Source: Chiloscyllium plagiosum (Eukaryota). Taken from it: a DNA stretch of 64,000 bases. The position numbers were made by a program, and so were the translations under genes. A model generated the notes under the pieces. The model ran no database searches, was not told the origin of the DNA, and saw nothing but the letters and a program-made list of their open reading frames with translations. Positions 5,204 to 59,942 of the stretch are shown in pieces. Position 1 is the first letter of the stretch, and each line of letters opens with the position of its first letter. The stretch spans positions 14,277,483 to 14,341,482 of the forward strand of contig NC_057751.1 of the NCBI RefSeq assembly GCF_004010195.1, in the 5' to 3' direction.

Positions 5204-5231
5204 CTGATGAAGGGCTTTTGCCAGAAACGTC
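5204..5231 (+). ncRNA. Minimal hammerhead ribozyme motif (family A; stem II closing pair disrupted)
   Basis: CTGATGA-A-GGGC-TTTT-GCCA-GAAAC-GTC. Confidence 0.6.
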
Positions 5232-5814
5232 GATTTCGAAGCTCCTTGGATGCTGCCTGAACTGCTGTGCTCTTCCAGCACCACTAATCCAGAATCTGGT
5301 TTCCAGCATCTGCAGTCATTGTTTTTACCTCGTTGAGCTTAACTAATTGTGTCTGAATCTGCAATAAGTGCAAGTTAACCTGAAATAATCAATTTGCAGG
5401 ATTTGTTTTTGTTAAATCTTTGGAGTGAGCTCGACTGTCATGGAGCTGAATGGGAACAAGGTAGCTATTAGATCTGTGCAGAGCTGCTTGTGTTATCAGA
5501 GTGCTGAGAATCTTAATGAATCTTAAGTAAATTGTTTGGATGATTTGCTCTTGGTAACCCATGCCCATTCCATTTGCTGTGGTTTTGTAATGAGAAACAC
5601 CAAGCAATCACACTTGAATAGCTTGATCTGAATCTCAAACATCTTTTCCTTTGCAGATGCATAAGTTTGTCAACAGATGGCAGCAGCAGCATAGGGTCCC
5701 TGATAGGGAAGCAAGACGGTTGTGGTCATTAACACAGCAACCCGATGGGTTAGATTTGCAGCAGACCAACCAAATAAATCATGCTCCAAAAGCAGCATTA
5801 GGTCAGTGTTGAAA

Positions 5815-5960
5815 ATGAGAAACAAAAGCAGGAAGTGCTGGAAATGCTTGTCAAATCTGGCAGCATCTGTGGAGAAGAAACAGTTAGCCTTGAAATCGAA
5901 AAGCCTGCCTGTCCACAAATGTTGCCAGACCTGGTTAATGTTTCCACATTTTCTGCTTTT
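5815..5960. repeat. Degenerate inverted pair of PLE terminal repeats (hairpin)
   Basis: aaagcaggaagtgctggaaatg..tctggcagcatctgtggaga versus tgtccacaaatgttgccaga..tttccacattttctgcttt; the ribozyme core is lost. Confidence 0.55.
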
Positions 5961-6399
5961 AGATCATAAATAAATCATGAGGATGAGTCATTTTTTTATG
6001 AGTTTGACCTTCGGACTTCCTGTACCAAGCACGGGAAAGCAAAACCACCAATGTCATCAACTCAGGGGTTTGCTTCGTTTTGAAATCAAGAAACCATGTG
6101 CCCTTCTCACATGGTTCTGCACTCAGTTTTCAAGAAATGTTAACTCAAAACTATAAATTACTTGGCGATAATTATAATCGCCCTGTTCAGGCACATTATG
6201 GCATACGTCTGGCGGAGGTGGAACTTGAACATGGGCCTTCTGATCCAGGGATACGGTCACTACCACTGCCACATGTACTTTTCCAAATCAGTTTTAAATT
6301 TCAGCATATGTGTGTGTCAGATGTATTGAGTTTTGCAGTGGAGAGATGGGGGAAGACTGACTGATCAGAACACATGGCCTTCAAATCATGAAACTTAAC

Positions 6400-6655
6400 A
6401 AAATAAAAACCAAAACAATTGGGGCTGCTGGAAATCAGAAACAAAAACAGAAAATGCTGGAAAAGCTCAGCAAATCTGGCAGCGTCTGTGTGGAGAAATC
6501 AGAGTTAACGTTTCAGATTCAGTGACCCTTCGTCAGAGCTCAAAACTCAGCAGTTCTGCGGAAGGGTCACTGGACCTGCAACGTTAACGCTGATTTTTCT
6601 CCACAGATGTTGTAAGATCTGCCGACCTTTTCCAACAGCTTTTGATTTGGTTTAT
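6400..6655. mobile_element. Head-to-head inverted pair of PLE-type family C terminal repeats, each with a degenerate hammerhead
   Basis: Minus copy core 6507-6536 reads CTGACGA-A-GGGTC-ACTG-AATCT-GAAAC-GTT. Plus copy 6556-6585 reads CTGCGGA-A-GGGTC-ACTG-GACCT-GCAAC-GTT. The flanking arms are mutually complementary. Confidence 0.75.
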
Positions 6656-8123
6656 GAAAGTTAGCTAAGGATAGTGAGTTAATTGGAAATTCAAAATACA
6701 CCACAACGATCACACTTGACAGTTGACAACTCGGTTTCAACACTTTCCCCTCCAATGAACTTTGTAAGTCAAGTTTTAACGGCTTCCTTTTTGACTGTGA
6801 CACTTGGATAAACTGTCATGCAGTGCTACGACTTGGAGATCAAACTGGACCTAACTTGTACAAAGTTACCTCGAGAAACCTTGCTGAAAAAGAAGTGAGC
6901 TTCGTCTTGAAACCAGATTTACTTTGCAGCCTTTAAACAGGGATTTTGAAGATTCCAACTCTTGTTCCTGCCTTGTCAAGTTGGACAATATTTTTGAATC
7001 CCAAATTACTGCCTTTCTCCATATCCTTTTATACACTTAGTGAGCATCTACCTCCATTTTGACCATCTGAATTAATATGCATCTTTGGTCATTGGAAACT
7101 CCATTCTCTGAGTGAGGCTATTTAAATTAGATTCACTGTTAACTGCCTTGCTTCTAATTCTAATGGGCAAGTCTATTGATTCCAAGGATCAACCTGCTGA
7201 ATTGTAATTTAAGGTCCCATTTAGACCTAATTTACCCTTTTATAAAGGTGGCATGCTTCAATCACAAAGGGCCAGAGTTAACAACACACGCTGCTATTCA
7301 TGTGCAAATCAGCCATTAAATTCAGGCATTCAGAGATACTTGCTTGAGTTATGGGTCTCCAGAACTTACTGGTCTGTTCACTTGGCTTTTTGCTTCACAG
7401 AGGTAAAATCCTGATGTTAATCTTTCCATAATTTGGAAGAATTTGCTGGATTTCATTAATTGTCCATGACATTCACCAGAAAATTGTGTCTAGAGAGTAA
7501 TCATGTAAATGTCTTTTTAATTGTACTGCCATGGAAATTCATCAACTTCTGGTCCAGAGAGGTAATAATTTAATCTGTTCAATCTTGTCCCTGTACATGG
7601 TAAATTGTTGAAAAGGATGTTAAATGTCAGTTTTTTTCCCCTCACTGTCCCTTAATGCTGATTTTCTCTCCCTCACTTAATTCCCCTTTCAGTTTCTCAT
7701 TTACTTTTAATTCAGACGACTCCATTGCTTTGCTGTGTTTCTTCCTCAATCCTTAAGCATCACTAATTAAAGCAAGAGCACTGTTTTATCCTGGTGCTCA
7801 CCTGGGTCAGAAACGCCTCATTACTCTCGTAGCACCATTATCAGCTTATACTTGTAATTGCATGCAGAAAGATGTTGAACGAAAGGATGCGTGTAAAAGT
7901 CCCAGACCTGGAACATCTCGTCCTGTTGACCACTGTCGGACAGCATGCTGGCAGTCTAGCATTTGTAGGATTGGTCATCATCAGCTAACTCTTCATTTTG
8001 ATTTGACGGTGGGGTTCCTCTTGCATGTTTCAAGAAATGGTGACAGCATTGATATTAATGTCACAAATATTTCTCTGTCTCTGACTTACTGCAATGGAAA
8101 ATGTTACTGTTGCTCTAATGTGA

Positions 8124-8294
8124 AACTCTCACAACACCAGGTTATAGTCCAACAGGTTTAATAGGAAGCACACTAGCTTTCGGAGCGCCGTTCCTTCATC
8201 AAGTGAAGGAAAGCTAGTGTGCTTCCAGTTAAACCTGCTCGTGCGATTTTTAACTTTGTACACCCCAGTCCAACACCGGCATCTCCAAATCACA
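8124..8294. mobile_element. Short hairpin derivative of PLE family B with hammerhead motif and 12-bp TSD
   Basis: ggaagcacactagctttc / gaaagctagtgtgcttcc is a perfect inverted repeat. Minus core 8174-8202 reads TTGATGA-A-GGAAC-GGC-GCTCC-GAAAG-CTA. Flanked by GCTCTAATGTGA (8112-8123) and GCTCTTATGTGA (8295-8306). Confidence 0.8.
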
Positions 8295-11654: not shown

Positions 11655-12425
11655 TTTGCAGTTTGCAGGTGTTTCATCCTCTATCTTGGTGACATCTTCA
11701 CTGCTTTGGAACCTCCTGTGAAGCACTGCTGTACTGTGTCATCTGGAATTTTTTTGGTTCCATTTCTGCTGCTTCCGGTTATCCATTGTTGTGTCCGGTA
11801 TATTGAGTCTAGGTCAATATGCTTATTGATGAAGTCTGTGGCTGAGTGCCATGCCTCTAGAAATTCCCTGGCTTTCCTACATTTAGCTTGTCCTATGATT
11901 GCTGTGTTGTCCCAGTCGAACCTGTGATCCTTGTTCTCTACGTGTATGGCTAACAGGGACAGCTGGTCTCGGCATTTTGTGGCTAGTTGGTGTTCATGGA
12001 TGCGGATTGCTAGTTGTCTGCTCGTTCGTCCTACATAGTGTTTCATGCAGTCTTTGCGTGGAATCTTGTAAATTACTTTAGTCTTGCACATGATGGGTAT
12101 AGGGTCTTTTGGCCTGTTGAGTCGTTGTCTGAACGTGGTTGTCGGTTTATGGGTTATCATGATTTTGAGTGATTGGAGAAGTCCAGCTGTCAATTCAGAG
12201 ACCTTTTTTAATGTAAGGTAGTGTGGCTAGTGTGTTAGGTCGGGACATGTCGTCATCACGTTGTTTGTCTGTTAGGCATGTGTGGATGAAGTTGCGGGGA
12301 TATCTGTTCTTGGCGAATACGCTGTCGGGGTATTCTTCTTTGTCCCTTAGTAGGTCGGAGGGGCGTGCTGCAGTTTGTTGTAGCCCTTTTGAACAGGGTC
12401 ACAAGTGCGTTGGCTTTTGTGTGTG
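11655..12425 (-). mobile_element. Penelope-like element (family D), GIY-YIG endonuclease remnant and 3' end
   Basis: TLFKRATTNCST, then HKPTTTFRQRLNRPKDPIP..VIYKIPRKDCMKHYVGRTSRQLAIRIHEHQ..HRFDWDN..AREFLEAWHS (GIY-YIG-like VIY..YVG). Frameshifted, with a degenerate hammerhead at ~11668-11701. Confidence 0.88.
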
Positions 12426-18068: not shown

Positions 18069-18568
18069 NNNNNNNNNNNNNNNNNNNNNNNNNNNNNNNN
18101 NNNNNNNNNNNNNNNNNNNNNNNNNNNNNNNNNNNNNNNNNNNNNNNNNNNNNNNNNNNNNNNNNNNNNNNNNNNNNNNNNNNNNNNNNNNNNNNNNNNN
18201 NNNNNNNNNNNNNNNNNNNNNNNNNNNNNNNNNNNNNNNNNNNNNNNNNNNNNNNNNNNNNNNNNNNNNNNNNNNNNNNNNNNNNNNNNNNNNNNNNNNN
18301 NNNNNNNNNNNNNNNNNNNNNNNNNNNNNNNNNNNNNNNNNNNNNNNNNNNNNNNNNNNNNNNNNNNNNNNNNNNNNNNNNNNNNNNNNNNNNNNNNNNN
18401 NNNNNNNNNNNNNNNNNNNNNNNNNNNNNNNNNNNNNNNNNNNNNNNNNNNNNNNNNNNNNNNNNNNNNNNNNNNNNNNNNNNNNNNNNNNNNNNNNNNN
18501 NNNNNNNNNNNNNNNNNNNNNNNNNNNNNNNNNNNNNNNNNNNNNNNNNNNNNNNNNNNNNNNNNNNN
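18069..18568. other. Assembly gap (500 N)
   Basis: Run of N flanked by CR1-like fragments. Confidence 0.98.
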
Positions 18569-25131: not shown

Positions 25132-25168
<37 letters not shown>

Positions 25169-30639: not shown

Positions 30640-30769
30640 GCCTGATGAAAGGCTTTTGCCAGAAACGTCAATTTCGAAGCTCCTTGGATGCTGCCCGAAC
30701 TGCTGTGCTCTTCCAGCACCACTAATCCAGTTTCTGGTTTCCAGCATCTGCAGTCATTGTTTTTACCTC
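30640..30769 (+). mobile_element. 130-bp hammerhead-bearing PLE family A unit with perfect 9-bp TSD
   Basis: GTTATATTT at 30631-30639 and 30770-30778. Starts 2 nt before CTGATGA-AA-GGC-TTTT-GCC-A-GAAAC-GTC (30642-30669) and closely matches 5203-5331. Confidence 0.85.
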
Positions 30770-31555: not shown

Positions 31556-32015
31556 CATGTGGTGATGCCACTGGATTGGTAACGTGAAGGATCAGGCTTT
31601 GCTGATCTTTGGAGACCGGTTCAGATCCCACTATCAAGATTAGAGTGGTGCTGGGCTTTTCCTGATGAAGCGCTGTTACCCGAAATGTCGATTCTCCTGC
31701 TCCTCAGATGCTGCCTGACGCTAATCTTGACTCTGACCTTCAGCATCTGCAGCCCTCAGTTTTGCCCTCAGATCCCACAATGGCAGCTGGTGAAGTGTAA
31801 ATCTGGATTTATCTATCACCCAGTGTTGTCAAAACCAGTCTGATTGAGGGCATGAAGTTTGCCATCTTTTCCTTGTCTGGCCTGCATGCGAATCCTGATT
31901 CGCAGCAGTACAGATTAACCTGGAAGTGTCCTTTGAAACAGCTCAGCAAACTCAAGGTCGGTTGGGGATGGGCAATAAGTACTGCCCTTACCGGCGATGC
32001 CCACACTCCATGAGA
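31556..32015 (+). mobile_element. tRNA-derived SINE (second family) interrupted by a hammerhead unit
   Basis: gtggtgatgccactgga..ggttcagatcccac[insert]aatggcagctggtgaa..ggatgggcaataa..gatgcccacactccatga. Confidence 0.6.
31632..31767 (+). mobile_element. Short hammerhead-bearing PLE family A unit with perfect 11-bp TSD
   Basis: TCAGATCCCAC at 31621-31631 and 31768-31778. Degenerate core CTGATGA-A..CCC-GAAAT-GTC from 31662. Short inverted 5' piece tcaagattag versus internal ctaatcttga. Confidence 0.8.
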
Positions 32016-35421: not shown

Positions 35422-35559
35422 GAGGCAAAAGTGAGGACTGCAGATGCTGGAAGCCAGAGTTTAGATCAGAGTGGTGCTGGAAAAGCACAGCAGGTCAGGC
35501 AGCATCCGAGGAGCAGGAAAATCGAAGTTTCGGGCAAAAGCCCTTCATCAGGAATAGAG
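35422..35559 (-). mobile_element. Short hammerhead-bearing PLE family A unit
   Basis: Minus core 35524-35551 reads CTGATGA-A-GGGC-TTTT-GCCC-GAAAC-TTC; flanked by GGAGTC at 35416-35421 and 35560-35565. Confidence 0.8.
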
Positions 35560-37339
35560 GGAGTCTGAAGAGTTTAGCAGTTTATGCTCCAGGATCAAGA
35601 CCAAAAGTCGATGCATTGTGACTATTTACATTTCTAATGAGGACTTCATGCAGTCCGCAAGAGTGCAGTCTGTGGAGTGTAGGTGCTTAACTAGGCAAGA
35701 TGCAAAATTTTGATTGAAGTATAGGAATGAAGTTAGTGTGTTTGTGACTTTAGAACTTCACGCTGACCTGTGGTGGATTTCAATGCTTAATGGATTTGCA
35801 TGTGCTGAATACTTACTCAGATTCTTGTTTCCTATTGTATTCCTAAATTCAAGATGTTGGCCAGATACAGAAGAATCTGATAGTACCTGGTTTATATTTG
35901 TTGAAAGTTACCGTGCACGAGTTGGCTTTGTACAGTTGTGCAGAAGATCATAAATTTTCTCTTTTTGAACTCTCTCACCCTGGGGAAGGGAGGAAGGCAA
36001 TGGACTCTGAGCGAGGCTTGGACTAGAAACGTGTGAGGTGGGGTAGGTGAAGAATGGAGGACTGGAAGAAAGATTCAGGTAAGAAGAGGATGCAGTTAAA
36101 GGTGTTGAATAACGTAGGATGGGGCTTGGATGTGTTTTGGGGTTCAGTTGAAGTAATCGGGAGCCTAAAGAATGATGTCATCACTGTGTTAATGTGTCTC
36201 CATCTGTGTGTTGGCTAACAAAGGCCTTGAAGACTTTCAGTTGCCCTTGTTGAGTGTGATCTCAAACAATGGAAGGAAGGCTAGCTGAGCATGCAAGTTC
36301 AAGTCATTCCAACAGAGTGATGAGTAAAGCACAGGGCACAAACATGACCATTTAGTCAGGAGTGAACGCAAAAGCTCAATATTGTTCTATCTGCAATTAA
36401 CAAACTGGGCAGAGCTCCTGGAACCGTCAAACCAACAATCATGAATGTGCCATTCAGTTACCTCTCCTTAATTAGCCCAAACAAATAGCAATGACGCACA
36501 CATGAATGAAGTGAAAATATTGTCATGTGAAATATATACAGGTGAAATTGAACTTTGTAAAAAAGAGCTCTTGAGTCTTCAATGATTATATGATCAGGAA
36601 AGTTGTGACCTTGCTCTGAGCCTCCCCATTTGATCAGGTTTTCAGTTCTGTGAAGATGACTTGTTTCTTTCGGTAGTGGGTCAAAACAGCCCTTCCAAGA
36701 AATCATGTGACTGAAACTAAATGACCTGACAAGCTTGTGAATGCGATAATGACTCCAGTGTTTACTAAGCTGAGCTTATATAACCCAGAGAAGTCAAACA
36801 TCTCTGTGACTCTATGACAGTTTAGTTTCGGCAGTTATCAGGCCAAGCGAACTGAGATGAAGACTTAACATGTTTTAGCTGTACAAGTAGACAGGCCTGG
36901 AAAGGTTGGGAATGTGTTTTTTTTTAGTTTAGTGATTTAGCTTGCGTCTATCTGTCCAGAGAGAATTACATCTGAGCAATGTGCAGCATGACATCAAAAG
37001 AAAACCCTTGCACCTCATTGTTGATTAAGATGTTAGAGAGTAAAGTCTGGATTGATACATCACTCGGGTTGAGTATCTATAAAGAATACTGCTGGGAAAA
37101 GGGTTGTAACTTTACTGGTTATGATGAGATCTTAGCAAATTGTCTTGTATATAGTGTTTTTCTTCCTGTTGTTTTGTGTCACAAACTTATACTCTTCTGT
37201 TTGAAATGCATTGATAGCCTGTTGTGAATATATTCAGTGATGGACCATGATAATAGCCAAATCAAAAAAAAAGATAATTATGGACTTTCAGGCTAGGTTT
37301 CACACTGGTGTGACCGTACCATGAAGGGTAGAAGGGAGC

Positions 37340-37980: not shown

Positions 37981-37984
37981 TCTT

Positions 37985-38075
37985 GAGTTCTGAAGAAGGG
38001 TTGCAGGACCCCAAAATGTTAACTCTGTTTTCTCTCGACAGAGGCTGCCAGACTCCCCGAGTTGATCCAACAATT
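37985..38075 (+). mobile_element. PLE-type family C terminal repeat with degenerate hammerhead
   Basis: GAGTT-CTGAAGA-A-GGGT..GACCC-CAAAAT-GTT-AACTC; stem I GAGTT/AACTC is perfect, GAAA is mutated. Confidence 0.65.
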
Positions 38076-38197
38076 TCATGCACATGCAGTCGTCATCAGC
38101 TCGGATCGCCAAAGAATAACAGAAGTGATCTGCTGCATGAGAATACCATTTGGACTGTCATGCACTCACTCTTCAAATGAGCACCATTACTTGGTGC

Positions 38198-39523: not shown

Positions 39524-39569
<46 letters not shown>

Positions 39570-39834: not shown

Positions 39835-39935
39835 CGTTTGGACAAAGGGTCACCGGACCCGAAACGTTAACTTTGATTTCTCTTCACAGATGCTGTCAGA
39901 CCTGCTGAGCTTTTCCAGCAGCTCCTGCTTTTGTT
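39835..39935 (+). mobile_element. PLE-type family C terminal repeat inserted in a SINE
   Basis: A-GGGTC-ACCG-GACCC-GAAAC-GTT-AACT (39846-39872), then cagatgctgtcagacctgctgagcttttccagc; the CUGANGA box is degenerate. Confidence 0.7.
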
Positions 39936-40144
39936 ACAAGTCAACCACATTGGTCTGTCGAGTATAGGCCTGACCCGGGTAAGAATGGCAGATTTCCTTC
40001 TCTGAAAGGCATGAGTGAACCAGATGTGTCTTTGTGAGCAGTACAATGAATGGTGAAGCCAGCTTTACAATGCAGCATTTCCTTTACTGAATTCAAGTTT
40101 CACTATCTCTCCGAGTGAGACTCAAACCCACGCCCACAGTCGTG

Positions 40145-40845
40145 GTTGTGGATATGTTCTCCGAGCTGGGGTGTTGATTTGCAGACGTTTCGTCCCCTGT
40201 CTAGGTGACATCTTCAGTGCTTTGGAGCCTCCTGTGATGCGCTGTTGTACTGTGTCATCTGGAATGTATTTGGTTCTGTTCCTGCTTTTCCGGTTGTTTG
40301 TTGTAATGGCCGGTACATTGGGTCCAGGTCTATGTGTTTATTGATGGAGTCTATGGGTGAGTGCCGTGCTTCTAGAAATTCCCTGGCTTTCCTACGTTTA
40401 ACTTGTCCTATGATTGTGACGTTGTCCCAGTCGGATTTATGACCCTTGTTCTCTGTCTGTATGGCTATGAGGGACAGCTGGTCTCGGCATTTAGTAGCTG
40501 GTTGGTGTTCATGGATGCTGATTGCTAATTGTCTGCCTGTTTGTCCTACACAGTGATGCATGCAGTCTTGTAAATTACTTTAGTCTTGCACATGGTGGGT
40601 ATAGGGTCTTTTGGCCTGTTGAGTCGTTGTCTGAACGTGGTTGTCGGTTTATGGGTTATCATGATTTTGAGTGGTTGGAGAAGTCCAGCTGTCAATTCAG
40701 AGACCTTTTTTAATGTAAGGTAGTGTGGCTAGTGTGTTAGGTCGGGACATGTCGTCATCACGTTTGTCTGTGAGGCATGTGTGGATGAAGTTGCAGGGAT
40801 ATCCATTCTTGGCGAATACGCTGTAGGGGTGTTGTTCTTTGTTCC
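40145..40845 (-). mobile_element. Penelope-like element (family D), GIY-YIG remnant and 3' end, nested in a SINE
   Basis: HCVGQTGRQLAISIHEHQ..DWDNVTIIGQ..AREFLEARHS..INKHIDLDPMY, highly similar to 11655-12345. SINE halves lie at 39748-40140 and 40846-40900. Confidence 0.88.
40181..40220 (-). ncRNA. Minimal hammerhead ribozyme, intact core (family D)
   Basis: Minus strand: GCA-CTGAAGA-T-GTCACC-TAGACA-GGGGAC-GAAAC-GTC-TGC. Stem I GCA/TGC, stem II 5 of 6 pairs, GUC triplet. Confidence 0.78.
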
Positions 40846-44775: not shown

Positions 44776-44869
44776 TGTTAGCTGATTCTTGTGAAAACTA
44801 AAGCCCAACAGTCTAGCTTGTACATTGGAGGGATGTGTATGGCACAAGGGTCCAAACACCAAACTCGAT

Positions 44870-45225: not shown

Positions 45226-45390
45226 CCTTTTCCCTCGGCTCTAGGGTGAGGTTGTGAACTGAGGCACACTTGGAGGACCAACCTGGCTTAAAAGCTGAAG
45301 GAGCTTTCTGGTGCTTCGCTGGAAGTGAACAAATCCTGACAATGTGGAGAACCTGAATGTGGAAGAAGGACTGAATCGAGGAAAAGGTAA

Positions 45391-46264: not shown

Positions 46265-46640
46265 AGGCACAGAGCAATAACAACAGAAATGGGTAGAGAA
46301 ACTCAGCAGGTCTGGCAGCTTCAGTGGAGAGAAAGCAGAGTTAATGTTCTGAGTCCAGTGACCCTTCTCAGGACTGAGTGTCAATTGGAGAAGGTAGTCT
46401 ATGTGCTGATGGCACATGGTGGAGGGGAAAGGAGTGAGTGAGCAGGTGAAGATGGAATAGAGAGAAAGTAAAGCGGACTAAGAGATGGATGATAGTGAGC
46501 CAGGAAAGGAGAAAAGCAAATAATGGGGGCAATGAGGAGGTGAAAATAGTTGCTTGTTCTGAAACCAGCCCATGTCAGACATGGAAGGTGGTGTTCAAGC
46601 TCTGAAATGCTCAGACTTGATATTGAATCCAGGTGGAAAA
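46265..46640 (-). mobile_element. PLE-type family C 3' end with degenerate hammerhead
   Basis: agaaactcagcaggtctggcagc..gagttaatgttctgagtccagtgacccttctcagg, followed by a purine-rich tract like other PLE 3' regions. Confidence 0.55.
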
Positions 46641-48830: not shown

Positions 48831-49190
48831 TGATCTCATTGAATGGTAGAGCATACTTGATGGGCTAAATGGCCTATGTGGTGGAATTGTCTTCCTCACA
48901 GAAGCTTCAGATATTTTTCAGGCAGAGATGGTAAGCAAGGTTATTTTGGAGGAGCAGGAATACAGACTTGAGGTTACGTTGAGATCTGTCATGTTCTGAT
49001 TGACTAAGGAAGCAGGCTTGGGAAGACCAAATGGCTGTCTCCATGTGATTCATGCTTTGCTAAGCAACCTTCATCCAGGCTGTTATCGGCTGGACCTCAG
49101 AGAAGGACTTTGGAAAGCTACACCATGTGACCAGTCTCCTTGGAAATTGGTCAATTTTGAAGAAATTTGAACTTCCTCCTATCAGCTGAA

Positions 49191-49230
49191 AGATTCCTGA
49201 AGAAGGGCTCATGCCCGAAACGTCGATTCT
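49191..49230 (+). ncRNA. Minimal hammerhead ribozyme, intact core (family A)
   Basis: AGATTC-CTGAAGA-A-GGGC-TCAT-GCCC-GAAAC-GTC-GATTCT. Stem I has 5 pairs plus one U.U, stem II is a perfect 4 bp, predicted cleavage is after C49224. Followed by a PLE tail to ~49285. Confidence 0.8.
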
Positions 49231-49284
49231 CCTGCTCCTCGGATGCTGCCTGGCCTGCTGTGTTTTTCCAGCACCACATTTTTT

Positions 49285-49607
49285 CTCTCCTGTAAGACCC
49301 TGGGTTTGATTTTAGCTTTTGTCCCAAGGCGTGTATGTGTGGATTTTTGCTAGTATTTGGAACAGTATCATTAAGTTGGGATAATCTGTTGGGTTTTTGG
49401 ACAGGTCGTTATTCTATTTTCTGTTCTCTTTTGTTTGTCTTTCATTCGGTAATGTTGTAAATAAATTCTGTTTTTAAAACTAAGTGGTTTGACCAGCTGA
49501 TTCTCTCCTGGAATATCCACTTACACCTGCTTAAAATGACAAGCAAAGTTAGGGTATGGGCTACTTTCTTGAAATGTTTTTGAGGGGGTCTGGCCTGGTC
49601 CATAACA
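49285..49607 (+). mobile_element. LTR-like element 3' part
   Basis: Contains AATAAA and ends ggtcCATAACA; homologous to 9929-10285 and to the reverse complement of 9289-9450. Confidence 0.6.
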
Positions 49608-50356
49608 CACTCCTTGGTGTCTCAATCATCAGAGTAAACAGTCCACCGGGAATGCAATGAGGACATGTCTACCCACTCGGCTGAGCAGTACCTTGGTGTC
49701 GTCTGCCTCCAGGTGCAGTTGTTGACTTCCAGCGTTTCTAAAATCAACTCCCAGTGGGAAATCCTGGTCTGATGGCCTTTGTTCCCCCAGGTCATGCCAG
49801 AACAAAGCTCCTGACATTCCTGCAAGGCACATTGTGTGAATCTCTTCGAACCAGAGTCACTGTCATCTCCGGCTGACTCTCAAACAGTCTTTTCTCTCTG
49901 TCACCGCAACAGAAAGTGCTGGAGAAACTCAGCAGATCCGGCAGCATCTGTGGAGAGAGAAAGCAGAGTTGAGATTGAGAGTGCAGTGACCCTTTTCTCT
50001 CTGTTGACTGCACAGAACCTTGGAGAGTTCCATTGATTTGTGAGGGAGTCTGCTCGAGATCGAAGGAAGGTTTAGATTATGCTACTCAGAACAGAAGATC
50101 AATCAACCTACCCAGGCCGACCATCAATGAGCTCAAATGACCCCTTCATTTCCTGTGGTTAATAAGATGATGAGAACATGACCCAAACAAGCAGGGGTTC
50201 ATAGAAATAAGAAACGTTGAGAATAATTAGACCCTTGAAACAAATAAGTGAAAGAATGTGCAGTGAGAAACTGGAGCAGTGGAGAGGTCACCAGAAAGGG
50301 CCACCCCTCTCTAGCATGTGGTGTCATATCCAAAGTGCTGACTGGTTAGCGTGAGG

Positions 50357-50485
50357 AGACAGTGAGGTCTGCAGATGCTGGAGATCAGAGTTGAGAGTGT
50401 GTTGCTGGAAAAGCACAGCAGGTCAGGCAGCATCCGAGGAGCAGGAGAATCGACATTTCGGGCCAGAGCCCTTCATCAGGAATGA
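50357..50485 (-). mobile_element. 129-bp hammerhead-bearing PLE family A unit with 13-bp TSD
   Basis: GGTTAGCGTGAGG (50344-50356) / GGTTAGAGTGAGG (50486-50498). Minus core 50452-50479 reads CTGATGA-A-GGGC-TCTG-GCCC-GAAAT-GTC. Confidence 0.85.
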
Positions 50486-51465
50486 GGTTAGAGTGAGGTT
50501 TATCTTTTCAAGTCTCATCGACATCTTCATTCATGTGTAATTAGCATCCATTCTGATTTGGGCTGAATTGGAAGGTCGAGAAAGTGAAATTTCATTGCTA
50601 ATTTCTTCACTTTGGAGTCAGAATGTATATGTTTCACTGTGTGGTTTCCCCCAAGGATTAGAATGAGTTGTGAACATTTTTTAACATTGTGTCCACTCCA
50701 GGAAGGTGACACGTTGCAATGGATAGCAGCTATGTGTTATTACATCCTTGTATCATTTCATCGGACTTTGTTTCAATGTGTCATTCTGCCCTGTTTGTGA
50801 TGTGGGGTGGATGGTGAATAGTTTTTAAAATACCAAAGAGATTTTCATTGATCAATAGAACAGCAACTTAGCAAATAGTACAAGGGCTGAACATGAACAT
50901 TCGAACTGTCAGCAGAATATCGTGAGGCAGATTAAAAGCCAAAGACATGGCAGTTTGCAAAAAAAGGCCATCTGAAGATTCATCGGCAGACAGGAACAGA
51001 GCACAGAAAAGAACAAAGGCTGGAGATGACGGCAGGTCAGACAGCAAGCTAGCGTTTGAAGTCAAAATGACTCTCTGCCTCCTGCCAGAAAAACACTGTA
51101 GACAATTTCACTCTCACTTTGACGAGATGGAATCTACCATGGACTGCAAAACCTTCTCTGAGTCTCGAAGATTTATGGCCACTCAACCTACTGAGAGCAG
51201 CAGTCATGAAGCGTTTCACTGGCCAGGTGTTCTCCCTTATCCAATCTGGTCTTTCACTCTTCCTTCATTCTGCAATTACATCCATTCGAAGTTGTTAGAA
51301 ACAGCTAGTTGACAAGATTTTCCTCCCTCGTTTCAAGCTCGAGGAGATGTGGTCAGGCTATCATGCTATTTTGGAATCTCTGAGGATACTTGCCCTCCTC
51401 ATCACCCATCATTCCTAACCCCTTTCTGCAGGTCTTTAAATTCCAAAGATCATCTTTAATCCATT

Positions 51466-52855: not shown

Positions 52856-53176
52856 TACTTAAATGCTAGCTCTTCCTTGTTAAGCTGATGCTGCACTCTG
52901 AAATGGGCAGGAACAGCTTTGGTCCGGGTGACAGCAGTGGTGCATATTCTGGTGTTGTCCTGGAGTCTCAGTTTATGAACTGACAACACCATTCAGTGAG
53001 AGTGAAGACAAATATTAACCATGTTAGATAATAAATGTCACCAACCCGCAACTAATCCATGGGACCTGTAACTTAATAGCATAGAAATAAATATGAACCG
53101 AATCAAAAAAAAAGGCAATATAAACTCGGCGTCTGTATTTAAAGGAATATTTAACCATGCGGAGTTCAGATCATGG

Positions 53177-54479
53177 TTAAAAATCTCACAACACCAGGTT
53201 AGTCCAACAGGTTTATTTGGAAGTACTAGCTTTCGGAGCGCTGCTCCTTCAGCAGCTAACTAGTGGGGCAGGATCATAGGACACAGAATTTGTAGCAAAA
53301 GATCAGTGTCATATAACTGATGTGATGTATTGCGCAAACCTGGATTGCTGTTAGCTCTTGAATCACTTTGAATAGTTTTGATTCATTAATATGTAAATCC
53401 CAGAACTTCTTTCAAGTCACATTCTTGAGATAAATTAAGGTCTTATTAAAGAAAGTGACATCTCAGCTCAGACAATGCATTAAAGGTGTGAGGTTAGAGT
53501 CTGTCTGTATTCCAACCTCGAGTCAGACCGGTTCTATTTCCAAAGTAGGAATTTATAAAATGACACATGGACTGACTGTCTAAAGACTGTGTGCGCTTTT
53601 TGGAAGAAATAGAATGTATCTCCAAATACGTATTCACCCCATAGATTTCCGTGTGTGTGTGCGTGCGCGACTGTGATAAAGTAAATGCCTGTGAGAGGGT
53701 ATGAGAGAGAGTCTCTATGAGTGTGTGAGAGAGAGAGTGTACAGTGTAGTGAGGTCATCTGTTGTGTGACATGAGCCCGATATCCCGGTTGAAGCTGTCC
53801 TCATGCGCATACACCCAGACTTGCTCTCACCATCTCAGAGGCATCGCCTTGGTCACACTCCATCAAGCACGTGCACATGCATTCTCCGCCTCTCTCTCGC
53901 ACACACACTCTCCCCCTCTCTCTCCACACCCCACTCTCACTCACACACACGCTCACTCTCTTCCCCCTCACACACACGCACTCTCTGTCTCCCTCACATG
54001 CGCACACACGTAAGTCTATGGGGTGAATTTGCGTTTGGGTATACAGTCTTTCATTCAAAAATCCCGCAATCTGCAAGAGTCAGTCCATGTGACATTTTAT
54101 CAATTCCTACTTTGGAAATAGAACCGGTCTGACTCAAGGTTTTAATATATACAGACTCTAATCTCGCACCTTCAATACATTGTCTGAGCTGAGATGTCAC
54201 TTTTTGTTAAAAAAACGTTAACTTATTTTGGGGCTGTGACTTGCAAGAAGGTCTGAGATTTACATATTAATGAATCGAAGCCATCAACCCCATTCTCAGT
54301 GATTAAAGACTTAACAACAATCTAGATTTGTGCAATATATCGCATAAGTTGTATGACACTTTGATCTTTTACGATAATTCTGTGTCCTATGATCCTGCCC
54401 CACGAGTTACCTGATGAAGGAGCAGTGCTCCGAAAGTTTGTACGATCATGTGATTTGTAACTATGTCCACCCCAGTCCA
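53177..54479. mobile_element. PLE family B insertion with long inverted terminal repeats
   Basis: Arms ~53230-53665 and ~53995-54436 are reverse complements, each ending in a hammerhead motif. The centre has the PLE ORF end HEDSFNRDIGLMSHNR* on the minus strand (~53755-53806). ATCATGG flanks at 53170-53176 and 54480-54486. Confidence 0.82.
54411..54439 (+). ncRNA. Hammerhead motif (family B)
   Basis: CTGATGA-A-GGAGC-AGT-GCTCC-GAAAG-TTT. The partner copy 53227-53255 (-) reads CTGCTGA-A-GGAGC-AGC-GCTCC-GAAAG-CTA. Confidence 0.62.
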
Positions 54480-54656: not shown

Positions 54657-54830
54657 AGGTCAGGCAGCATCCAAGGAGCAGGAGAATCGACGTTTTGGGC
54701 CAAAAGCCCTTCTTCAGGAAGCCCGAAACGTCGATTCTCCTCCTTGGATGCTGCCTGACCTGCTGCGCTTTTCCAGCAACACATTTTTCAGCTCTGATCT
54801 CCAGCATCTGTGGTCCTCACTTTCTCCTCC
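54657..54830. mobile_element. Head-to-head hairpin of PLE family A terminal repeats
   Basis: aggtcaggcagcatccaaggag..gagaatcgacgttttgggc versus gcccgaaacgtcgattctcc..tccttggatgctgcctgacct. Flanks GACAAGGAAGG (54649) / GACAGGGAAGG (54836). Confidence 0.8.
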
Positions 54831-55497: not shown

Positions 55498-55782
55498 ATC
55501 CAGCCCGCACTGTCCCCTTGACCTGTCCGGACTTGTCCGACCTGCCTAGCTCCTTTTCCACCTAACCACTCCACCCTCTCCTCCCTGACCTATCACCTTC
55601 ATCTCCTCCCCCACTCACCTATTGTACTCTATGCTACTTTCTCCCCACCCCCACCCTCCTCTAGCTTATCTCTCCACGCTTCAGGCTTTATTCCTGATGA
55701 AGGGCTTTTGCCCGAAACGTCGATTTTGCTGCTCGTCGGATGCTGCCTGAATTGCTGTGCTCTTCCAGCACCACTGATCCAG
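55498..55782 (+). mobile_element. PLE family A 3' end inserted in a LINE
   Basis: Nearly identical to 5127-5290 over its 3' half; begins and ends with ATCCAG. Confidence 0.85.
55694..55721 (+). ncRNA. Minimal hammerhead ribozyme, intact core (family A)
   Basis: CTGATGA-A-GGGC-TTTT-GCCC-GAAAC-GTC; stem I is weak (attc/gatt). Confidence 0.75.
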
Positions 55783-56809
55783 GCATAGGTTTAGGGTGAG
55801 AGGGGAAAGATACATGAGAGACCTAAAGGGCAACTTTTTCACATAGAGGGTGGTACGTGTATGGAATGAGCTGCCAGAGGATGTGGTGGAGGCTGGTACA
55901 ATTGCAACACTTAAAAGGCATTTGGATGGGTATATGAATAGGAAGGGTTTGGAGGGATATGGGCCAGGTGGGACGAGATTGGGTTGGGATATCTGGTCGG
56001 TCTGGGCGGGTTGGACCGAAGGGTCTGTTTCTGTGCTGCACATCTCTATGACTCTATTCCAGTCTGCCTTTTCATGGCCTGACTGAAACAGGAACCTTCC
56101 CTGCGCTCTCTCTCATGGAGAGACATACCTGATAAAAGCTCAAAGGCACCCAGTCAATTTGCTACAACTCTGAGCACCACAGTATTTCAAGGTACAGCTC
56201 AGCTCATCAGGTATATGCAGGAGTTTAGCCGACCATGCTGACCAGATCGAATTTAGGAGATGCCAGGTTACAGAGAGAAGGGAAACCATTCACTTGAAGA
56301 GAAAGTGCAGACGCGATGGGCCGAAAGACCATTTCTTTCATATTGCTGACCCAAGTTATGGATGGAATTGGCAGTGAGCCATTTCTCCTGTTGTTAGATC
56401 TGATGAGGAACACAAATATATTAATCTACCAGTGGGATGTGTGGTTCTTTGGGCACCATTGATTTTGAGGTGTTAAAATCAGTGCGTTCGCTTGGAGATG
56501 TGTGGCTCAGCAGTTTGTGAAGCCAGATCCAATTAATTGTTGAATGGATTTGTAGTAAATCGCTGTGTGTGTCAGACAGTGCTGTTCCTGCATTGCAGAA
56601 AGCCTGAGTCACAATGCTGCTGGCAAAGATGATTAGATTTTAATGTTTCTGCTGCTTGTGGCCTCTTCCACCTGGCAAGCTGCTGCCATACTATGCCCTG
56701 CTCACTTTGTTCCTGTGTCATCCTCACACTTCCACTGGAATTTCTCTGTGGGCACTCTGTGACATCGACCATCCAACTGCAGCTAGACCAGCTTCTCAGC
56801 TCGGAGCAA

Positions 56810-57412: not shown

Positions 57413-57417
57413 ACTGT

Positions 57418-57730
57418 CTGCGCACGGGAATTCCCACAGGCCTGGCATTCCAACCAGAACTTCATCAACAAACACATCCATTTGGACCCCATTTACCAAC
57501 CTCTCAGAAACAGAAATGGAAGTGATATCCACCACAACAGACCAAGCCACACAAATAGAAAGCTGGACAGAACACCAGTGCTTCACCGGAGGCTCACTGA
57601 TGATGTTACCTCGCATGGTGACACCACTGATGATGTTATCCAGCACAGTGATAAAACATCTGAGAACAAACCGACCAGATCAGCAGACAAACTGACAACC
57701 TGAGCTACAAATCTTCTGTAAAATCGCTGG
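57418..57730 (+). mobile_element. Penelope-like 3' end (family D relative) with duplicated hammerhead half
   Basis: AREFPQAWHSNQNFINKHIHLDPIYQPLR; CTGATGA-T-GTTACC-TCGCAT-GGTGAC at 57597 and CTGATGA-T-GTTATC..AAAAC-ATC-TGAG at 57627. Confidence 0.8.
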
Positions 57731-58526
57731 GGCCCTCTAGTTCCCCCGTCCCTGGGGGAAAGAACGCGGACGTTTTCATTTCTGAATTGTTGCTTGTCAG
57801 AGTTCGGTTTGCTCTTGCAATTTCAAGCGCCTCTTCATTTGTTTGGCCATGAGTATACACAATTTTTCGCTGACATCTAAGCAACCACATTTCTGTCCAT
57901 TCAACGTTTCCGCCATTGTTCATTATGTGGATTGATACCAATCTGTAACACACGTTCAATGACACCAATTAGAATATCTTCACCCACTGCTTTGAATGTT
58001 ATAAACCATAACATGAAGGTAGCAGGGCCGCACTAGTGATGGTGGCAGAGGGACGTTGGCTGTGGGGCAGCCTTTCAGCAGAAACACCAAGTGCGCCGGG
58101 AAACCACCTCGTGCCTTGTTTTTACAAATCAAATTGTTCTTTGAAGAGCAACTGAAGAACTATGTCCAACGGCTCGAGATGTGGAAGAAGGAGCAGGAGA
58201 CCTGTGTGTGACTGCACACCAGAATAGATCCAGTAACACTCGTGTATTCTATAATGTAGTCTTCCGACACTGTGGCTATTTATCCAGTGACCTATCCAAA
58301 AATGTATATGGTTCAACATCTCAAGTACATATTTATACAAATGAGTGTATTTTATCATTGATTCAGCAGCAGTCTGTCTCATCCTTGTCCCCTTTTACCT
58401 GAATCCCATCATTGATCAGTTTGAACTTGCTGTGTTGAGTGATGTTTCCCCTTTACTTGTCCTCCGCTCCTCCGGCCTTATTTTTCCCTGTTTCTGTACC
58501 TGACTGAAAACCGTTCCTTTGCTCAC

Positions 58527-58812
58527 TTACAGAGTTATGCAGCACAGGAACAGGCCCTTCGGCCCAGCTCGTCCATGCTGACCATGTTTCCTAAACTGAA
58601 CTAATTCCCGTCTGCCAGCACCCGGCCCATCTCCCTCCAAACCCTTCCTAATCTTATACCCATCCAGATGCCTTTTAAATGTTGCAATTGTACCAGCTTC
58701 CATCACTTCCTCTGGCAGCTCATTCCACACATGCACCACCCTCTGCGTGAAAAAGTTGACCCTTGGGTCCCTTTTATATCTTTCCCCTCTCACCCTAAAA
58801 CTATGCCCTCTA
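58527..58812 (-). mobile_element. HER1/CR1 LINE 3' end
   Basis: RGHSFRVRGERYKRD..FFTQRVVHVWNELPEEVMEAG. Confidence 0.88.
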
Positions 58813-59529
58813 CGTTGACCCACTCACAGCGGCAAAGAATTCCGCAGATTCATGGCTTTTGGAAGAAATTCCTCCTCATCTCTGTCTAGGCCCAAATGAT
58901 GCCGTCCCTGCAGTCTCTCCAACAAAGGGCACCAACCTTTCTGCCTTGACCCATGCCCTGTCCCACCAGAGTCCTGGATATTTCAGCGAGAGAGCTAAAT
59001 GACTCAACCTCTCCTCCCCAGGCTAGTTCATCTTGACCAGGCAAGTACAAAGAAACAGTGGCCCACCCGCCTATGACAAGTGAGTCCACAGCCTGATGGC
59101 CAACCAATGCAGGAGATTTGAACGTTGAAGTGTCCATCTTACTGCCTGGCTCTCCCACTTTGCGAGTTCCCAGTCTTGTTTTCCCACTGCCCAGTGAAAC
59201 CTTCCAGAAAGCCATTGCAGCTGTGTTCAGACAAGAAGTTTGGAACGTTTCAGCAAAACCTCCCAACCTGTCTACTTCATTCCCTTGGGCATACAGGCTA
59301 TCTGCCTTCCCAATTAGCTGCTGAACTTGGAATGCTTGCTTTTTGAGACAGATGCACACAAACCCCCACATTACTCAGTTGTGCAGATTACTGCAGTCTT
59401 GTATCCATTTAGCTCATATTCAGCCCCTGGATTCTTCCTGCCAAAGTGCAAGACCTCACGTTGCCATGCATGATGTGACATCTGCCAAGTTGTTGCCCAT
59501 TTGCTTAAACAGTCTGTCCTTCTGTTATG

Positions 59530-59942
59530 GGAAAGTGAGGACTGCAGATGCTGGAGATCAGAGTCGAGAGTGTGGTGCTGGAAAAGCACAGCAGGTCAGG
59601 CAGCATCCGAGGAGCAGGAGAATCAATGTTTCAGGCAGGAGCCTCTCATCAGGAATGAGGCTGGGAGCCTTGGGGGGTGGAGAGATAAATGGGAGGGGGT
59701 GTGGGGGCTGGGGAGAAGGGAGCTGGGAGTCCAATAGGTGGATGGAGGAAGGGGGAAAGGTCATGGGTCGGAGAGGAGGGTGGAGTGGATAGGTGGGAAG
59801 GAAGATTGACAGGTGGGGCAGGTCATGGGAATGGTGCTGAGCTGGAAGGTTGGATCTGGGGTAAGGTGGGGGGAGGGGAAATGAGGAAACTGGTGAAGTC
59901 CACATTGACGCTCTGGGGTTGAAGGGTCCCCAGGTGGAAGCT
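59530..59942 (-). mobile_element. PLE family A 3' end with hammerhead and TSD, inside an old CR1
   Basis: ORF end FHLGTLQPQSVNVDFTSFLISPPP. Core 59625-59652 reads CTGATGA-G-AGGC-TCCT-GCCT-GAAAC-ATT. Flanks TTCTGTTATG (59520) / TTCTGTTACG (59943). Confidence 0.82.

What the first reader, a model, noticed from the sequence alone, without database searches (positions are those of the whole stretch)
5204..59652. Dispersed system of minimal hammerhead ribozymes carried by four Penelope-type families
Seen: more than 15 motifs of the form CUGANGA-N-stemII-GAAA-NN-UH. Family A (GGGC/GCCC stem): 5204+, 30642+, 31662+, 35524-, 49197+, 50452-, 54689-, 55694+, 59625-. Family B (GGAGC/GCTCC): 8174-, 53227-, 54411+. 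Family C (GGGTC/GACCC): 6507-, 6556+, 37990+, 39846+, ~46345-. Family D (GTCACC/GGTGAC): ~11668-, 40184-, 57597+. The core boxes are conserved while stems I and II differ entirely between families yet still pair. In families A, B and D the motif sits just 3' of PLE ORF remnants (RT thumb, GIY-YIG); family C is assigned by its similar tail. Established: PLE terminal repeats encode minimal type-I hammerheads. Inference: this genome holds a dense, multi-family catalytic-RNA repertoire, about one motif per 3-4 kb here. Whether these elasmobranch families are already described could not be checked.
Basis: partly seen in the sequence, partly recalled or inferred. Interest (0 to 1): 0.82.

Follow-up and report, generated by a model that had tools for sequence, protein, structure and literature searches.

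The report
Penelope-element tail copies carrying hammerhead motifs
The window is peppered with worn tail-end copies of four Penelope-like jumping-gene families, each carrying a small hammerhead-ribozyme motif that is predicted, but not shown, to cut RNA; the kind is already described, though this genome holds well over 100,000 sequence-intact copies.

Summary
All 20 listed sites are real, homologous repeat copies in four families. Only 8 of 20 keep both hammerhead boxes plus a helix II of 4 or more pairs, and 6 of 20 also keep the 15.2-16.2 pair and U-H. The strict motif occurs 7 times against 0.255 expected from shuffles.

[quoted passage not shown] They lie in the last 60-140 nt of 5'-truncated PLE insertions. 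These insertions show target-site duplications, an optional ~40-nt tail, head-to-head inverted copies, and RT/GIY-YIG ORF remnants upstream.

Exact-pattern counts in the 3.56-Gb genome give 126,899 (A), 20,562 (B) and 13,892 (D) core-intact copies, with 0 for reversed-pattern controls.

Cleavage is not shown. Rfam models do not match. Copies are solitary, with no tight tandems. In 90 sampled family A copies the 5' ends pile up just upstream of the motif (47 of 90) and never at the predicted cut site (0 of 90).

Verdict: real, very abundant, but a new member of a known kind. This scan has already reported it several times on other pieces of this genome.

The parts
5127..5330 (+). Family A copy, starting at an N gap. 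Motif at 5198-5237. Both boxes intact; C11.1>A breaks the G10.1-C11.1 pair.
   Evidence: (41.9 bits)
30641..30768 (+). Family A copy. Motif at 30634-30675. A.A at 10.1-11.1; decayed.
   Evidence: (28.1 bits)
31656..31766 (+). Family A copy. Motif at 31656-31695. Two helix II mismatches.
   Evidence: (29.7 bits)
35423..35563 (-). Family A copy of about 140 nt, young (genome hits 96-98% identical). Motif at 35518-35557. Boxes and helix II intact; G16.2>U breaks the 15.2-16.2 pair.
49193..49277 (+). Family A copy, 3'-truncated. Motif at 49191-49230, fully intact in sequence.
   Evidence: (56.3 bits; a seed sequence)
50361..50487 (-). Family A copy. Motif at 50446-50485, intact, with a U15.2.G16.2 wobble.
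   Evidence: (a seed sequence)
54657..54823 (.). Family A head-to-head hairpin. The minus arm (54657-54720) carries the motif at 54683-54723 with G12>A. The plus arm (54721-54823) starts inside helix II and lacks the CUGANGA box.
   Evidence: (miRNA-like chance hit on the hairpin)
55530..55775 (+). Family A copy reaching about 160 nt upstream of the motif, into the C-rich 3' untranslated part. Motif at 55688-55727, intact.
   Evidence: (a seed sequence)
59532..59940 (-). Longest family A copy (413 nt), keeping about the last 30 codons of the PLE ORF (...VNVDFTSFLISP...). Motif at 59619-59658. Bulge is G, 10.1-11.1 is A-U, and 15.2-16.2 is broken.
8123..8204 (-). Family B copy with an 18-nt inverted arm directly upstream. 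C3>U and one helix II mismatch.
53175..53665 (-). Family B copy, one arm of an inverted pair of about 435 bp. Motif near 53227-53262 with A6>C. No ORF remnant.
53971..54443 (+). Family B copy, the other arm of the inverted pair. Motif from 54405, with boxes and the 5-bp helix II intact. Sequence diverges from family B just after the motif.
   Evidence: (E 0.011; B not in the seed)
6413..6543 (-). Family C copy. Motif at 6501-6542. Boxes intact; helix II is 4 pairs including G.U.
   Evidence: (a seed sequence)
6552..6634 (+). Family C copy, head-to-head with the previous one. A6>C and GAAA>GCAA.
37983..38077 (+). Family C copy. Motif at 37984-38026 with G12>A.
39845..39918 (+). Family C copy truncated inside the motif; no CUGANGA box.
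   Evidence: (model positions 13-36 only)
46273..46375 (-). Family C copy. One base of the 5' box is deleted and GAAA>AGAA.
   Evidence: (E 1.3)
49907..49994 (-). It starts inside the motif and lacks the 5' box.
11662..12398 (-). Family D copy. The 181-codon ORF at 11684-12226 has a GIY-YIG-like core (VIYKIPRKDCMKHYVGRT...EH) and runs into the motif (11662-11707). C3>G; helix II and 16.x decayed.
40139..40839 (-). Family D copy. Frameshifted EN remnant at 40200-40728. Motif at 40178-40223 with intact boxes, a 6-position helix II with one A.G, and C-G at 15.2-16.2. A9, the bulged U and G10.1 spell AUG.
   Evidence: (52.2 bits; not a seed sequence)
57422..57666 (+). Family D remnant. EN tail at 57422-57614, then two partial motif units at 57591-57666. 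The first lacks GAAA; the second has G12>A.
   Evidence: E 0.28

Best explanation
The 20 sites are 5'-truncated, mostly decayed insertions of the 3'-terminal module of four Penelope-like retroelement (PLE) families, and each module carries a minimal type-I hammerhead motif that would cut RNA only when two copies pair, which is untested here.

Shown by the sequence and the calls:
- The motif lies within the last 60-140 nt of the inserted unit. Reverse transcription starts at the 3' end, so almost every truncated insertion carries the motif. This explains the density.
- Insertions have 13-17-bp target-site duplications.
- Family D has an optional ~40-nt tail.
- Many copies have an inverted 5'-truncated copy abutting head to head.
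- Long copies have RT/GIY-YIG ORF remnants upstream.

Inferred:
- In the source elements the hammerhead likely helps process PLE transcripts as a dimer through the palindromic ACGU/AGCU at helix III.
- The dispersed solitary copies are likely inert relics.
- Family A 5' ends cluster 3-4 nt upstream of C3, not at the cut site. This suggests the copied RNA often begins, or the reverse transcriptase often stops, at the front edge of the motif.
For: Motif statistics:
- 7 strict hits against 0.255 expected. All 7 have the 1-nt bulge.
- In 438 kb (window plus 120 loci), 103 of 112 descriptor hits carry the bulge, and nearly all belong to families A-D.
- 15.2-16.2 is CG in A, C and D and GC in B.

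Pairing on 119 model hits (115 distinct):
- 75.9% of cells paired, against 64.4% in shuffles (0 of 500 shuffles reach it) and 18.6-55.2% when the partner is slid.
- Helix II is 90.6% paired, with 5 of 5 pairs changed on both sides.
- RNAalifold unaided recovers the three basal helix II pairs, two of them with compensatory changes.
- Helix I strands pair better with their own family's partner in B (3.74 of 5) and D (2.82 consecutive pairs against 0 across families).

PLE context:
- Target-site duplications in L003, L006, L008, L020 and L021.
- Optional family D tail.
- 10 head-to-head pairs with gaps of -6 to +24 nt among 53 adjacent hit pairs.
- 39 of 90 tail-selected family A copies have an inverted arm within 150 nt upstream.
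- YIDD reverse-transcriptase motif, CxxC linker and GIY-YIG core upstream of family A in L017 and L018.
- The family A nuclease segment gives weak Pfam GIY-YIG hits at E 0.0097 and 0.022.
- The family D nuclease core aligns to the family A core.
- 3 of the 8 longer relatives of the family D ORF carry an RVT_1 annotation: one shark protein, one tapeworm protein and one unnamed. Four of the other five are shark proteins. My own Pfam scan of 3 of them put RVT_1 above its cut-off only in the tapeworm protein (34.7 bits), at 27.4 bits (below 29.6) in the shark protein P0001, and nowhere in P0003.

Genome counts: A 126,899, B 20,562, D 13,892, and family A fully intact 64,282, each with a reversed-pattern control of 0.

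Literature: the features match Cervera and de la Pena 2014 (PMC4209133, parts 1-2 read) and the PLE insertion architecture in Craig et al. 2021 (PMC8557442, passages) and PMC11167929 (passages).
Against: - No Rfam hammerhead model matches, even on a 91-nt piece at E <= 10.
- Helix I of family A is C-G, U-A, U.U, A-U. It pairs as well when slid by one base (3.0 against 3.07 of 5).
- RNAalifold does not predict helix I.
- Helix II of family A is 4 bp, not the 6-8 bp described for PLE minimal hammerheads.
- No cleavage signal in the copies: 0 of 90 forward arms and 1 of 39 inverted arms end at the cut site.
- A sublineage of 190 identical 32-mers with a broken 15.2-16.2 pair shows that copying went on without that pair.
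- Pfam support for GIY-YIG is below the curated cut-off, and absent for family D.
- No intact PLE ORF was shown. The one 1,199-codon 'open frame' is an N run.
Confidence: 0.9

Rival explanations
1. The motif is kept in these PLEs for a job other than self-cleavage. It might be a structured 5' module that marks the start of the copied RNA, stops or turns the reverse transcriptase, or dimerises two RNAs. The short 'mini-elements' would then be full-length copies of a short terminal-repeat transcript rather than random truncations.
For: - 47 of 90 family A 5' ends fall in a 31-nt span (-14 to +16 from C3), with peaks at -3 and -4.
- Inverted arms also peak at -3 (10 of 39).
- None of these ends pile at the cut site.
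- 190 copies of a sublineage have a broken helix III pair.
- PMC11167929 (passages) reports that hammerhead mutants do not affect insertion in vitro.
- PMC8557442 (passages) notes that hammerhead-less Naiads proliferate well.
Against: - The catalytic boxes themselves, not only the helices, are identical across four families with unrelated flanks. A mere hairpin would not need this.
- Published PLE hammerheads do cleave weakly as dimers or with protein (PMC4209133, PMC11167929).
- A pile-up of 5' ends can also come from reverse-transcriptase arrest at any stable hairpin.
Confidence: 0.3
2. The copies are non-LTR retrozymes: tandem hammerhead repeats that spread through small circular RNAs.
For: - PLEs and non-LTR retrozymes co-occur in vertebrates, including the one cartilaginous fish sampled (preprint 10.64898/2026.07.22.740005, Results read).
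- The motifs are type I.
Against: - 0 of the 14 adjacent same-strand hit pairs (of 53 adjacent pairs in all) lie closer than 211 nt, so there are no head-to-tail arrays.
- Copies have target-site duplications and variable 5' ends.
- Long copies are colinear with PLE ORF remnants.
- The motifs lack a helix III of their own.
Confidence: 0.03
3. The motifs are chance matches to a loose hammerhead pattern in repeat-rich DNA.
For: - Rfam models do not match.
- The descriptor is short.
Against: - 7 observed against 0.255 expected.
- Reversed-pattern controls are 0 against 13,892 to 126,899 matches.
- Features not in the descriptor recur: the bulge, G10.1-C11.1 and the 15.2-16.2 palindrome.
Confidence: 0.01

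Closest known systems
Minimal hammerheads (min-HHR) in the terminal repeats of metazoan Penelope-like elements (Cervera and de la Pena 2014, PMC4209133)
   Same: - Type I layout with no helix III of its own.
- Unpaired base between A9 and 10.1.
- G10.1-C11.1 pair and palindromic 15.2-16.2.
- Several families per genome with compensatory changes.
- Mostly solitary copies from truncated elements, with some pairs on opposite strands.
   Different: - Helix II is 4-6 bp here, against the 6-8 bp described.
- Helix I of family A is only about 2 pairs.
- Counts are far higher than the roughly 4,000 (coelacanth) and 9,000 (Xenopus) reported there: 161,353 core-intact copies for three families, about 45 per Mb. 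The descriptors differ, so the comparison is rough.
Poseidon PAc of Anolis carolinensis (PMC11167929)
   Same: - Hammerhead in the terminal repeat.
- An optional 30-40-nt tail between two reverse-transcription start sites.
- In family D the AUG formed by A9, the bulged U and G10.1 opens a frame at the start of helix II, as described for PAc. That frame stays open for 24 codons to the copy's end.
   Different: - It was not shown here that this AUG starts the family D ORF.
- In copy 11684-12226 the upstream nuclease frame runs into the same frame.
- No biochemical data exist for these elements.
Insertion architecture of EN+ PLEs (Craig et al. 2021, PMC8557442)
   Same: - Frequent 5' truncation.
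- Inverted 5'-truncated copy adjacent at the 5' end.
- Tail extension.
- C-terminal GIY-YIG, with a CxxC linker in families A and B and without one in family D.
   Different: - Clade assignment (Neptune-like or Poseidon-like) rests on motif reading only.
- No phylogeny was made.
Canonical type I hammerheads of axolotl retrozymes (PMC7229834)
   Same: Very high copy number (126,247 motifs reported there). They act as dimers because helix III is short.
   Different: - Those have a real helix III and loop-loop contacts, sit in tandem repeats and give circular RNAs.
- The copies here are dispersed minimal motifs at roughly ten times the density per Mb.

Membership tests
PLE minimal hammerhead (min-HHR) | Core boxes CUGANGA ... 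GAAA ... U-H | tested here: met
   8 of 20 window sites keep both boxes with helix II, and 6 of 20 also keep U-H after a 15.2-16.2 pair. The other 12 are decayed copies of the same families.
PLE minimal hammerhead (min-HHR) | One unpaired nucleotide between A9 and 10.1 | tested here: met
   7 of 7 strict window hits, and 103 of 112 hits in 438 kb. The bulge is A in families A, B and C, and U in D.
PLE minimal hammerhead (min-HHR) | G10.1-C11.1 pair | tested here: met
   Of 115 distinct hits: GC 85, GU 21, AU 3, unpaired 6 (the alignment is fitted to the model).
PLE minimal hammerhead (min-HHR) | Palindromic 15.2-16.2, giving a helix III only in a dimer | tested here: met
   CG in A, C and D; GC in B. 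CpG-decay variants TG and CA are common.
PLE minimal hammerhead (min-HHR) | Long helix II (6-8 bp) and short helix I (4-5 bp) | tested here: inconclusive
   Helix II is 4 bp (A), 5 bp (B, C) and 6 positions with one A.G (D). Helix I is about 5 of 6 (B), 5 (C), 3-4 (D) and 2 plus 1 (A, not register-specific).
PLE minimal hammerhead (min-HHR) | Lies in the terminal repeat of an element encoding RT plus GIY-YIG | tested here: met
   - Family D in the window.
- Family A: 6 of 30 sampled copies reach the nuclease remnant.
- Family B: 5 of 30.
- Family C: only by tail homology to A.
- Among 8 longer relatives of the D ORF, 3 carry an RVT_1 annotation.
- Pfam GIY-YIG is only sub-threshold.
PLE minimal hammerhead (min-HHR) | Self-cleavage 3' of H17 (as dimers) | not testable with these tools
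   Indirect looks found nothing. One search reported no piles of read ends (the library type is unsuited). Insertion 5' ends do not pile at the cut site.
Rfam hammerhead families (all hammerhead models in Rfam 15) | Score at or above the family's gathering threshold | tested here: not met
   0 matches at gathering. No hammerhead match at E <= 10 on the window or on 49170-49260 alone.
Non-LTR retrozymes | Head-to-tail tandem repeats each with a hammerhead | tested here: not met
   0 of the 14 adjacent same-strand hit pairs (of 53 adjacent pairs in all) lie closer than 211 nt.
EN+ Penelope-like elements | 5' truncation, adjacent inverted copy, optional 30-40-nt tail, target-site duplication | tested here: met
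   Window examples: 54657-54823, 6413-6634, 53175-54443.

The most novel reading that the evidence does not exclude
In this genome the hammerhead module acts mainly as the 5' boundary of the copied RNA. A short transcript starting 3-4 nt upstream of C3 in the terminal repeat is reverse transcribed from both DNA ends. This would produce the ~135-nt mini-elements and head-to-head hairpins in more than 100,000 copies, the densest hammerhead-motif load I found reported in the papers read. The ribozyme's cutting would play little or no part in copying.
Probability: 0.2. Interest if true: 0.5.

Novelty: new member of a known kind. Interest (0 to 1): 0.3.

Why it matters
The finding adds four lineage-specific families to the known link between Penelope-like elements and minimal hammerheads. 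It gives hard counts: at least 161,353 core-intact motifs, and 64,282 family A motifs intact through helix III, in 3.56 Gb. It also gives a natural 'fossil' test of ribozyme use: insertion 5' ends avoid the cut site and pile at the motif's front edge. That bears on the open question of what PLE hammerheads are for. It does not change the picture, and the scan has already reported it on other pieces of this genome.

Tried and rejected
- Rfam at gathering and at E <= 10, on the whole window and on a 91-nt piece: no hammerhead family.
- Pfam on 88 ORFs of 90 or more codons: only one weak RVT_1 (a LINE fragment at 48368-48835), nothing for PLE parts.
- RNA evidence: no RNA holder listed for 35401-45400.
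- The second lay (49100-50600) put 2,434 single-cell polyA reads of run X6 on the two family A copies, in both orientations, with 98% running on into unlike flanks and no places where molecules begin or end. Run X7 laid nothing. This library cannot show 5'-OH ends, so it is not evidence either way.
- Search for an intact PLE ORF: the 1,199-codon frame is an N run. This line was dropped.
- MAFFT misaligned family B by one column, so B was left out of model R1. At E <= 0.001 no B copy entered alignment A3. The pair counts therefore cover A, C and D only.
- RNAalifold on A2 gives only 3 pairs.
- MFE folds of 40-46-nt pieces show helices I and II for A_W49191, B_L034 and C_L063 but not for the family D copy: weak support only.
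- The idea that a helix-III-broken source drove the young family A subfamily was rejected. That variant has only 190 exact copies, against 64,282 with ACGUC.
- Comparison with Dfam or Repbase, and R-scape, could not be run: neither is offered here.
- The supplements of PMC4209133 (motif alignments) were not opened.
- Paper search 'hammerhead ribozyme' + Penelope + shark gave one paper, where 'shark' is only the shape metaphor.

Full report
OBSERVATION

The window is G000:C42:14277483-14341482 of a 3.56-Gb assembly. It has N runs at 4643-5126 and 18069-18568. They fall into four sequence families, as claimed.

A strict descriptor was used: CTGANGA, 0 or 1 extra base, a helix II of 4 or more pairs, then GAAA. 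It finds 7 sites: 6536-, 35551-, 49197+, 50479-, 54411+, 55694+ and 59652-. All 7 have the extra base. The mean in 200 dinucleotide shuffles is 0.255, with a maximum of 3. Allowing one internal helix II mismatch adds 40184-.

Six of the 20 sites also keep a 15.2-16.2 pair followed by U-H. The other 12 are recognisably the same repeats with lesions:
- G12>A at 54716- and 37990+.
- A6>C at 53227- and 6556+.
- C3 changed at 8174- and 11668-.
- A deleted core base at 46345-.
- No 5' box at 39846+.
- GAAA lost at 57597+.
- Helix II base mismatches at 5204+, 30642+ and 31662+.

So the sites are real, but 'more than 15 motifs of that form' is too generous.

MODEL-BASED CHECK

No Rfam family matches: not at gathering score, not at E <= 10 over the window, and not on 49170-49260 alone.

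I built a covariance model R1 from 17 natural copies of A, C and D (alignment A2; model). Four of the seeds are window copies, which match by construction.

With filters off, R1 finds 16 of the 20 listed sites at E <= 0.011. These include the non-seed 40178-40223 (52.2 bits) and the family B copy 54405+, although B was not in the seed. Two more sites score E 0.28 and 1.3. Two decayed B copies are missed, and BLAST shows they are B copies. One extra family C copy without the 5' box lies at 49907-49994.

STRUCTURE

Published PLE minimal hammerheads are defined by four things: the core boxes, one unpaired base between A9 and 10.1, a G10.1-C11.1 pair, and a palindromic 15.2-16.2 so that helix III forms only between two copies (PMC4209133, parts 1 and 2 read). 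All four are met here.
- The bulge is A in families A, B and C, and U in D.
- 15.2-16.2 is CG in A, C and D, and GC in B.

On 119 model hits from the window and 99 loci (115 distinct; A, C and D only), 75.9% of pair cells are standard pairs. Shuffles give 64.4% (0 of 500 reach the observed value), and slid partners give 18.6-55.2%. Helix II is 90.6% paired, with changes on both sides in 5 of 5 pairs. That alignment is fitted to the model, and the rows are related by descent. The independent events are therefore a handful of family and subfamily differences, not 143.

RNAalifold unaided recovers only the three basal helix II pairs, two of them with compensatory changes.

Helix I is family-specific in B (agttac/gtactt against aatcac/gtgctt, a U-A to C-G switch through U.G) and in D (gca/tgc against ttca/tgaa). 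In family A, the most abundant family, helix I is only C-G, U-A, U.U, A-U. It pairs equally well when slid by one base.

WHAT CARRIES THE MOTIFS

Family A is a unit of about 135-140 nt from ATTCCTGATGA to ...CACTTTTGCCT(CG). It has 13-17-bp target-site duplications (L003, L006, L008, L020, L021) and variable 5' ends.

Long family A copies (L017, L018) show, upstream, a YIDD reverse-transcriptase motif, a CxxC linker and a GIY-YIG core (NVIYCICCSQCGL(L/F)YIGE). The ORF ends about 250-300 nt before the motif. Six of 30 sampled copies reach that ORF. Pfam GIY-YIG hits it only below threshold, at E 0.0097 and 0.022.

Family C shares family A's whole ~105-nt tail but has different helices I and II.

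Family D in the window has a 181-codon ORF (11684-12226) whose core aligns to the family A nuclease core. Of its 8 longer relatives, 5 are from three orectolobiform sharks. Three of the 8 carry an RVT_1 annotation: one shark protein, one tapeworm protein and one unnamed. My own Pfam scan of 3 of them found RVT_1 above its cut-off only in the tapeworm protein; it scored 27.4 bits, below the 29.6 cut-off, in shark protein P0001, and was absent from P0003.

About half of the sampled family D copies carry an extra ~40-nt tail. This is the signature described for PLEs (PMC11167929 and PMC8557442, passages).

Family B in the window has only AT-rich non-coding sequence upstream. Genome-wide, 5 of 30 sampled copies are colinear with a GIY-YIG remnant 0.75-1 kb upstream.

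Head-to-head inverted copies are common. In the window they are 54657-54823, 6413-6634 and 53175-54443. Elsewhere, 10 of 53 adjacent hit pairs abut within -6 to +24 nt, and no same-strand pair is closer than 211 nt. This is the known PLE insertion architecture, not a tandem retrozyme.

ABUNDANCE

Exact-pattern counts over the genome:
- Family A core: 126,899.
- Family B: 20,562.
- Family D: 13,892.
- Family A intact through ACGUC-GAUU: 64,282.

Each has a reversed-pattern control of 0. Family C was not counted.

The sum for A, B and D is 161,353, about 45 per Mb. For scale, the papers read report roughly 4,000 and 9,000 minimal hammerheads in coelacanth and Xenopus (PMC4209133), and 126,247 canonical type I motifs in the far larger axolotl genome (PMC7229834, passage). 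The descriptors differ, so the comparison is rough.

DOES IT CUT?

This was not shown. The one usable read lay placed 2,434 single-cell polyA reads on the two family A copies at 49100-50600. Reads lay in both orientations, nearly all ran on into other loci's flanks, and there were no piles of ends. This library cannot reveal ribozyme ends.

As a genomic proxy I sampled 90 family A copies chosen only by a 20-nt tail word. These are 90 of the first 100 listed places of 73,105 matches. One place was dropped because it shared a region with another, and the last 9 were not fetched.

Forward-arm 5' ends lie between -14 and +16 from C3 in 47 of 90 copies, with peaks at -3, -4 and -10. None of the 90 lies at +27 to +29, the cut site. 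The local alignment can shift an end by a few bases, especially at hairpins.

Thirty-nine of the 90 have an inverted arm within 150 nt upstream. Those arms end at -3 in 10 of 39 and at +28 in 1 of 39.

So the insertions carry no fossil of cleaved templates. The copied RNA seems to begin, or the polymerase to stop or turn, at the motif's front edge.

A small sublineage of 190 exact copies shares a G16.2>U change that breaks helix III. At least some copying therefore went on without that pair.

These points fit published doubts about the role of PLE hammerheads (PMC11167929, PMC8557442). They do not exclude cleavage at another step.

COMPARISON AND VERDICT

The closest known thing is the minimal hammerhead of metazoan PLE terminal repeats, and the defining sequence features are met.

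The differences are of degree: a shorter helix II, a very short helix I in family A, and far higher copy number.

A 2026 preprint sampled one cartilaginous fish and found PLEs and retrozymes (10.64898/2026.07.22.740005, Results read). My paper search for shark-specific PLE hammerheads found nothing else.

Earlier notes of this scan on other pieces of the same genome reached the same reading, including the pile-up of 5' ends. I saw the detailed ones only after my own census.

The finding is real and well characterised. It is a new member of a known kind.

Noticed in passing
window 24039-26882 (+): An uninterrupted 947-codon frame with AT-hook-like [15 protein letters not shown] motifs, poly-E and poly-Q tracts and a Q/M/P-rich C-terminus. 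It is probably a large coding exon of a host gene. Pfam gives nothing. The protein atlas gives only a weak lead (0.80) to AHDC1/Gibbin-type AT-hook proteins.
   Followed up: partly
window 40178-40223 (-) and family D loci L091-L120: In family D, A9, the bulged U and G10.1 spell AUG. The frame from it stays open for 24 codons to the copy's end, as described for the Poseidon element PAc of Anolis. In copy 11684-12226 the upstream nuclease frame runs into the same frame.
   Followed up: partly
P0002: A shark protein annotated as a MAP3K7 isoform matches the family D nuclease ORF at 67% identity over 81% of the query. This suggests a PLE fragment taken up in, or mis-annotated into, a host gene model.
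   Followed up: no
window 48368-48835 (-), and about 55900-56100: Fragments of a non-PLE reverse transcriptase (weak RVT_1, E 0.0013; ...DLDQMGQWAEKWQMEF...), probably a LINE. The family A copy at 55530-55775 is followed by the tail of such an element.
   Followed up: no
window 61600-64000: GA/CT- and GT/CA-rich simple-repeat block. It gives long spurious open frames and sub-threshold miRNA-like Rfam hits on both strands (MIR533, MIR815 and others).
   Followed up: no
genome-wide; window 35518-35557 (-): A family A sublineage of 190 identical 32-mers shares G16.2>U, which breaks the helix III palindrome. The window copy at 35551- belongs to it.
   Followed up: yes
L127 (G000:C7:55645000-55654000): A 3,144-base N run lies where the family D protein search reported a 1,199-codon open frame. 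That 'open frame' is an artefact of the Ns.
   Followed up: yes
B loci L036, L047, L052, L059, L119: A further PLE nuclease type (PCHGNHCKTCQS...NVVYLIRCRQGCPEAWYIGETKQ) is scattered near many loci in both orientations. It is the type colinear with family B long copies.
   Followed up: partly
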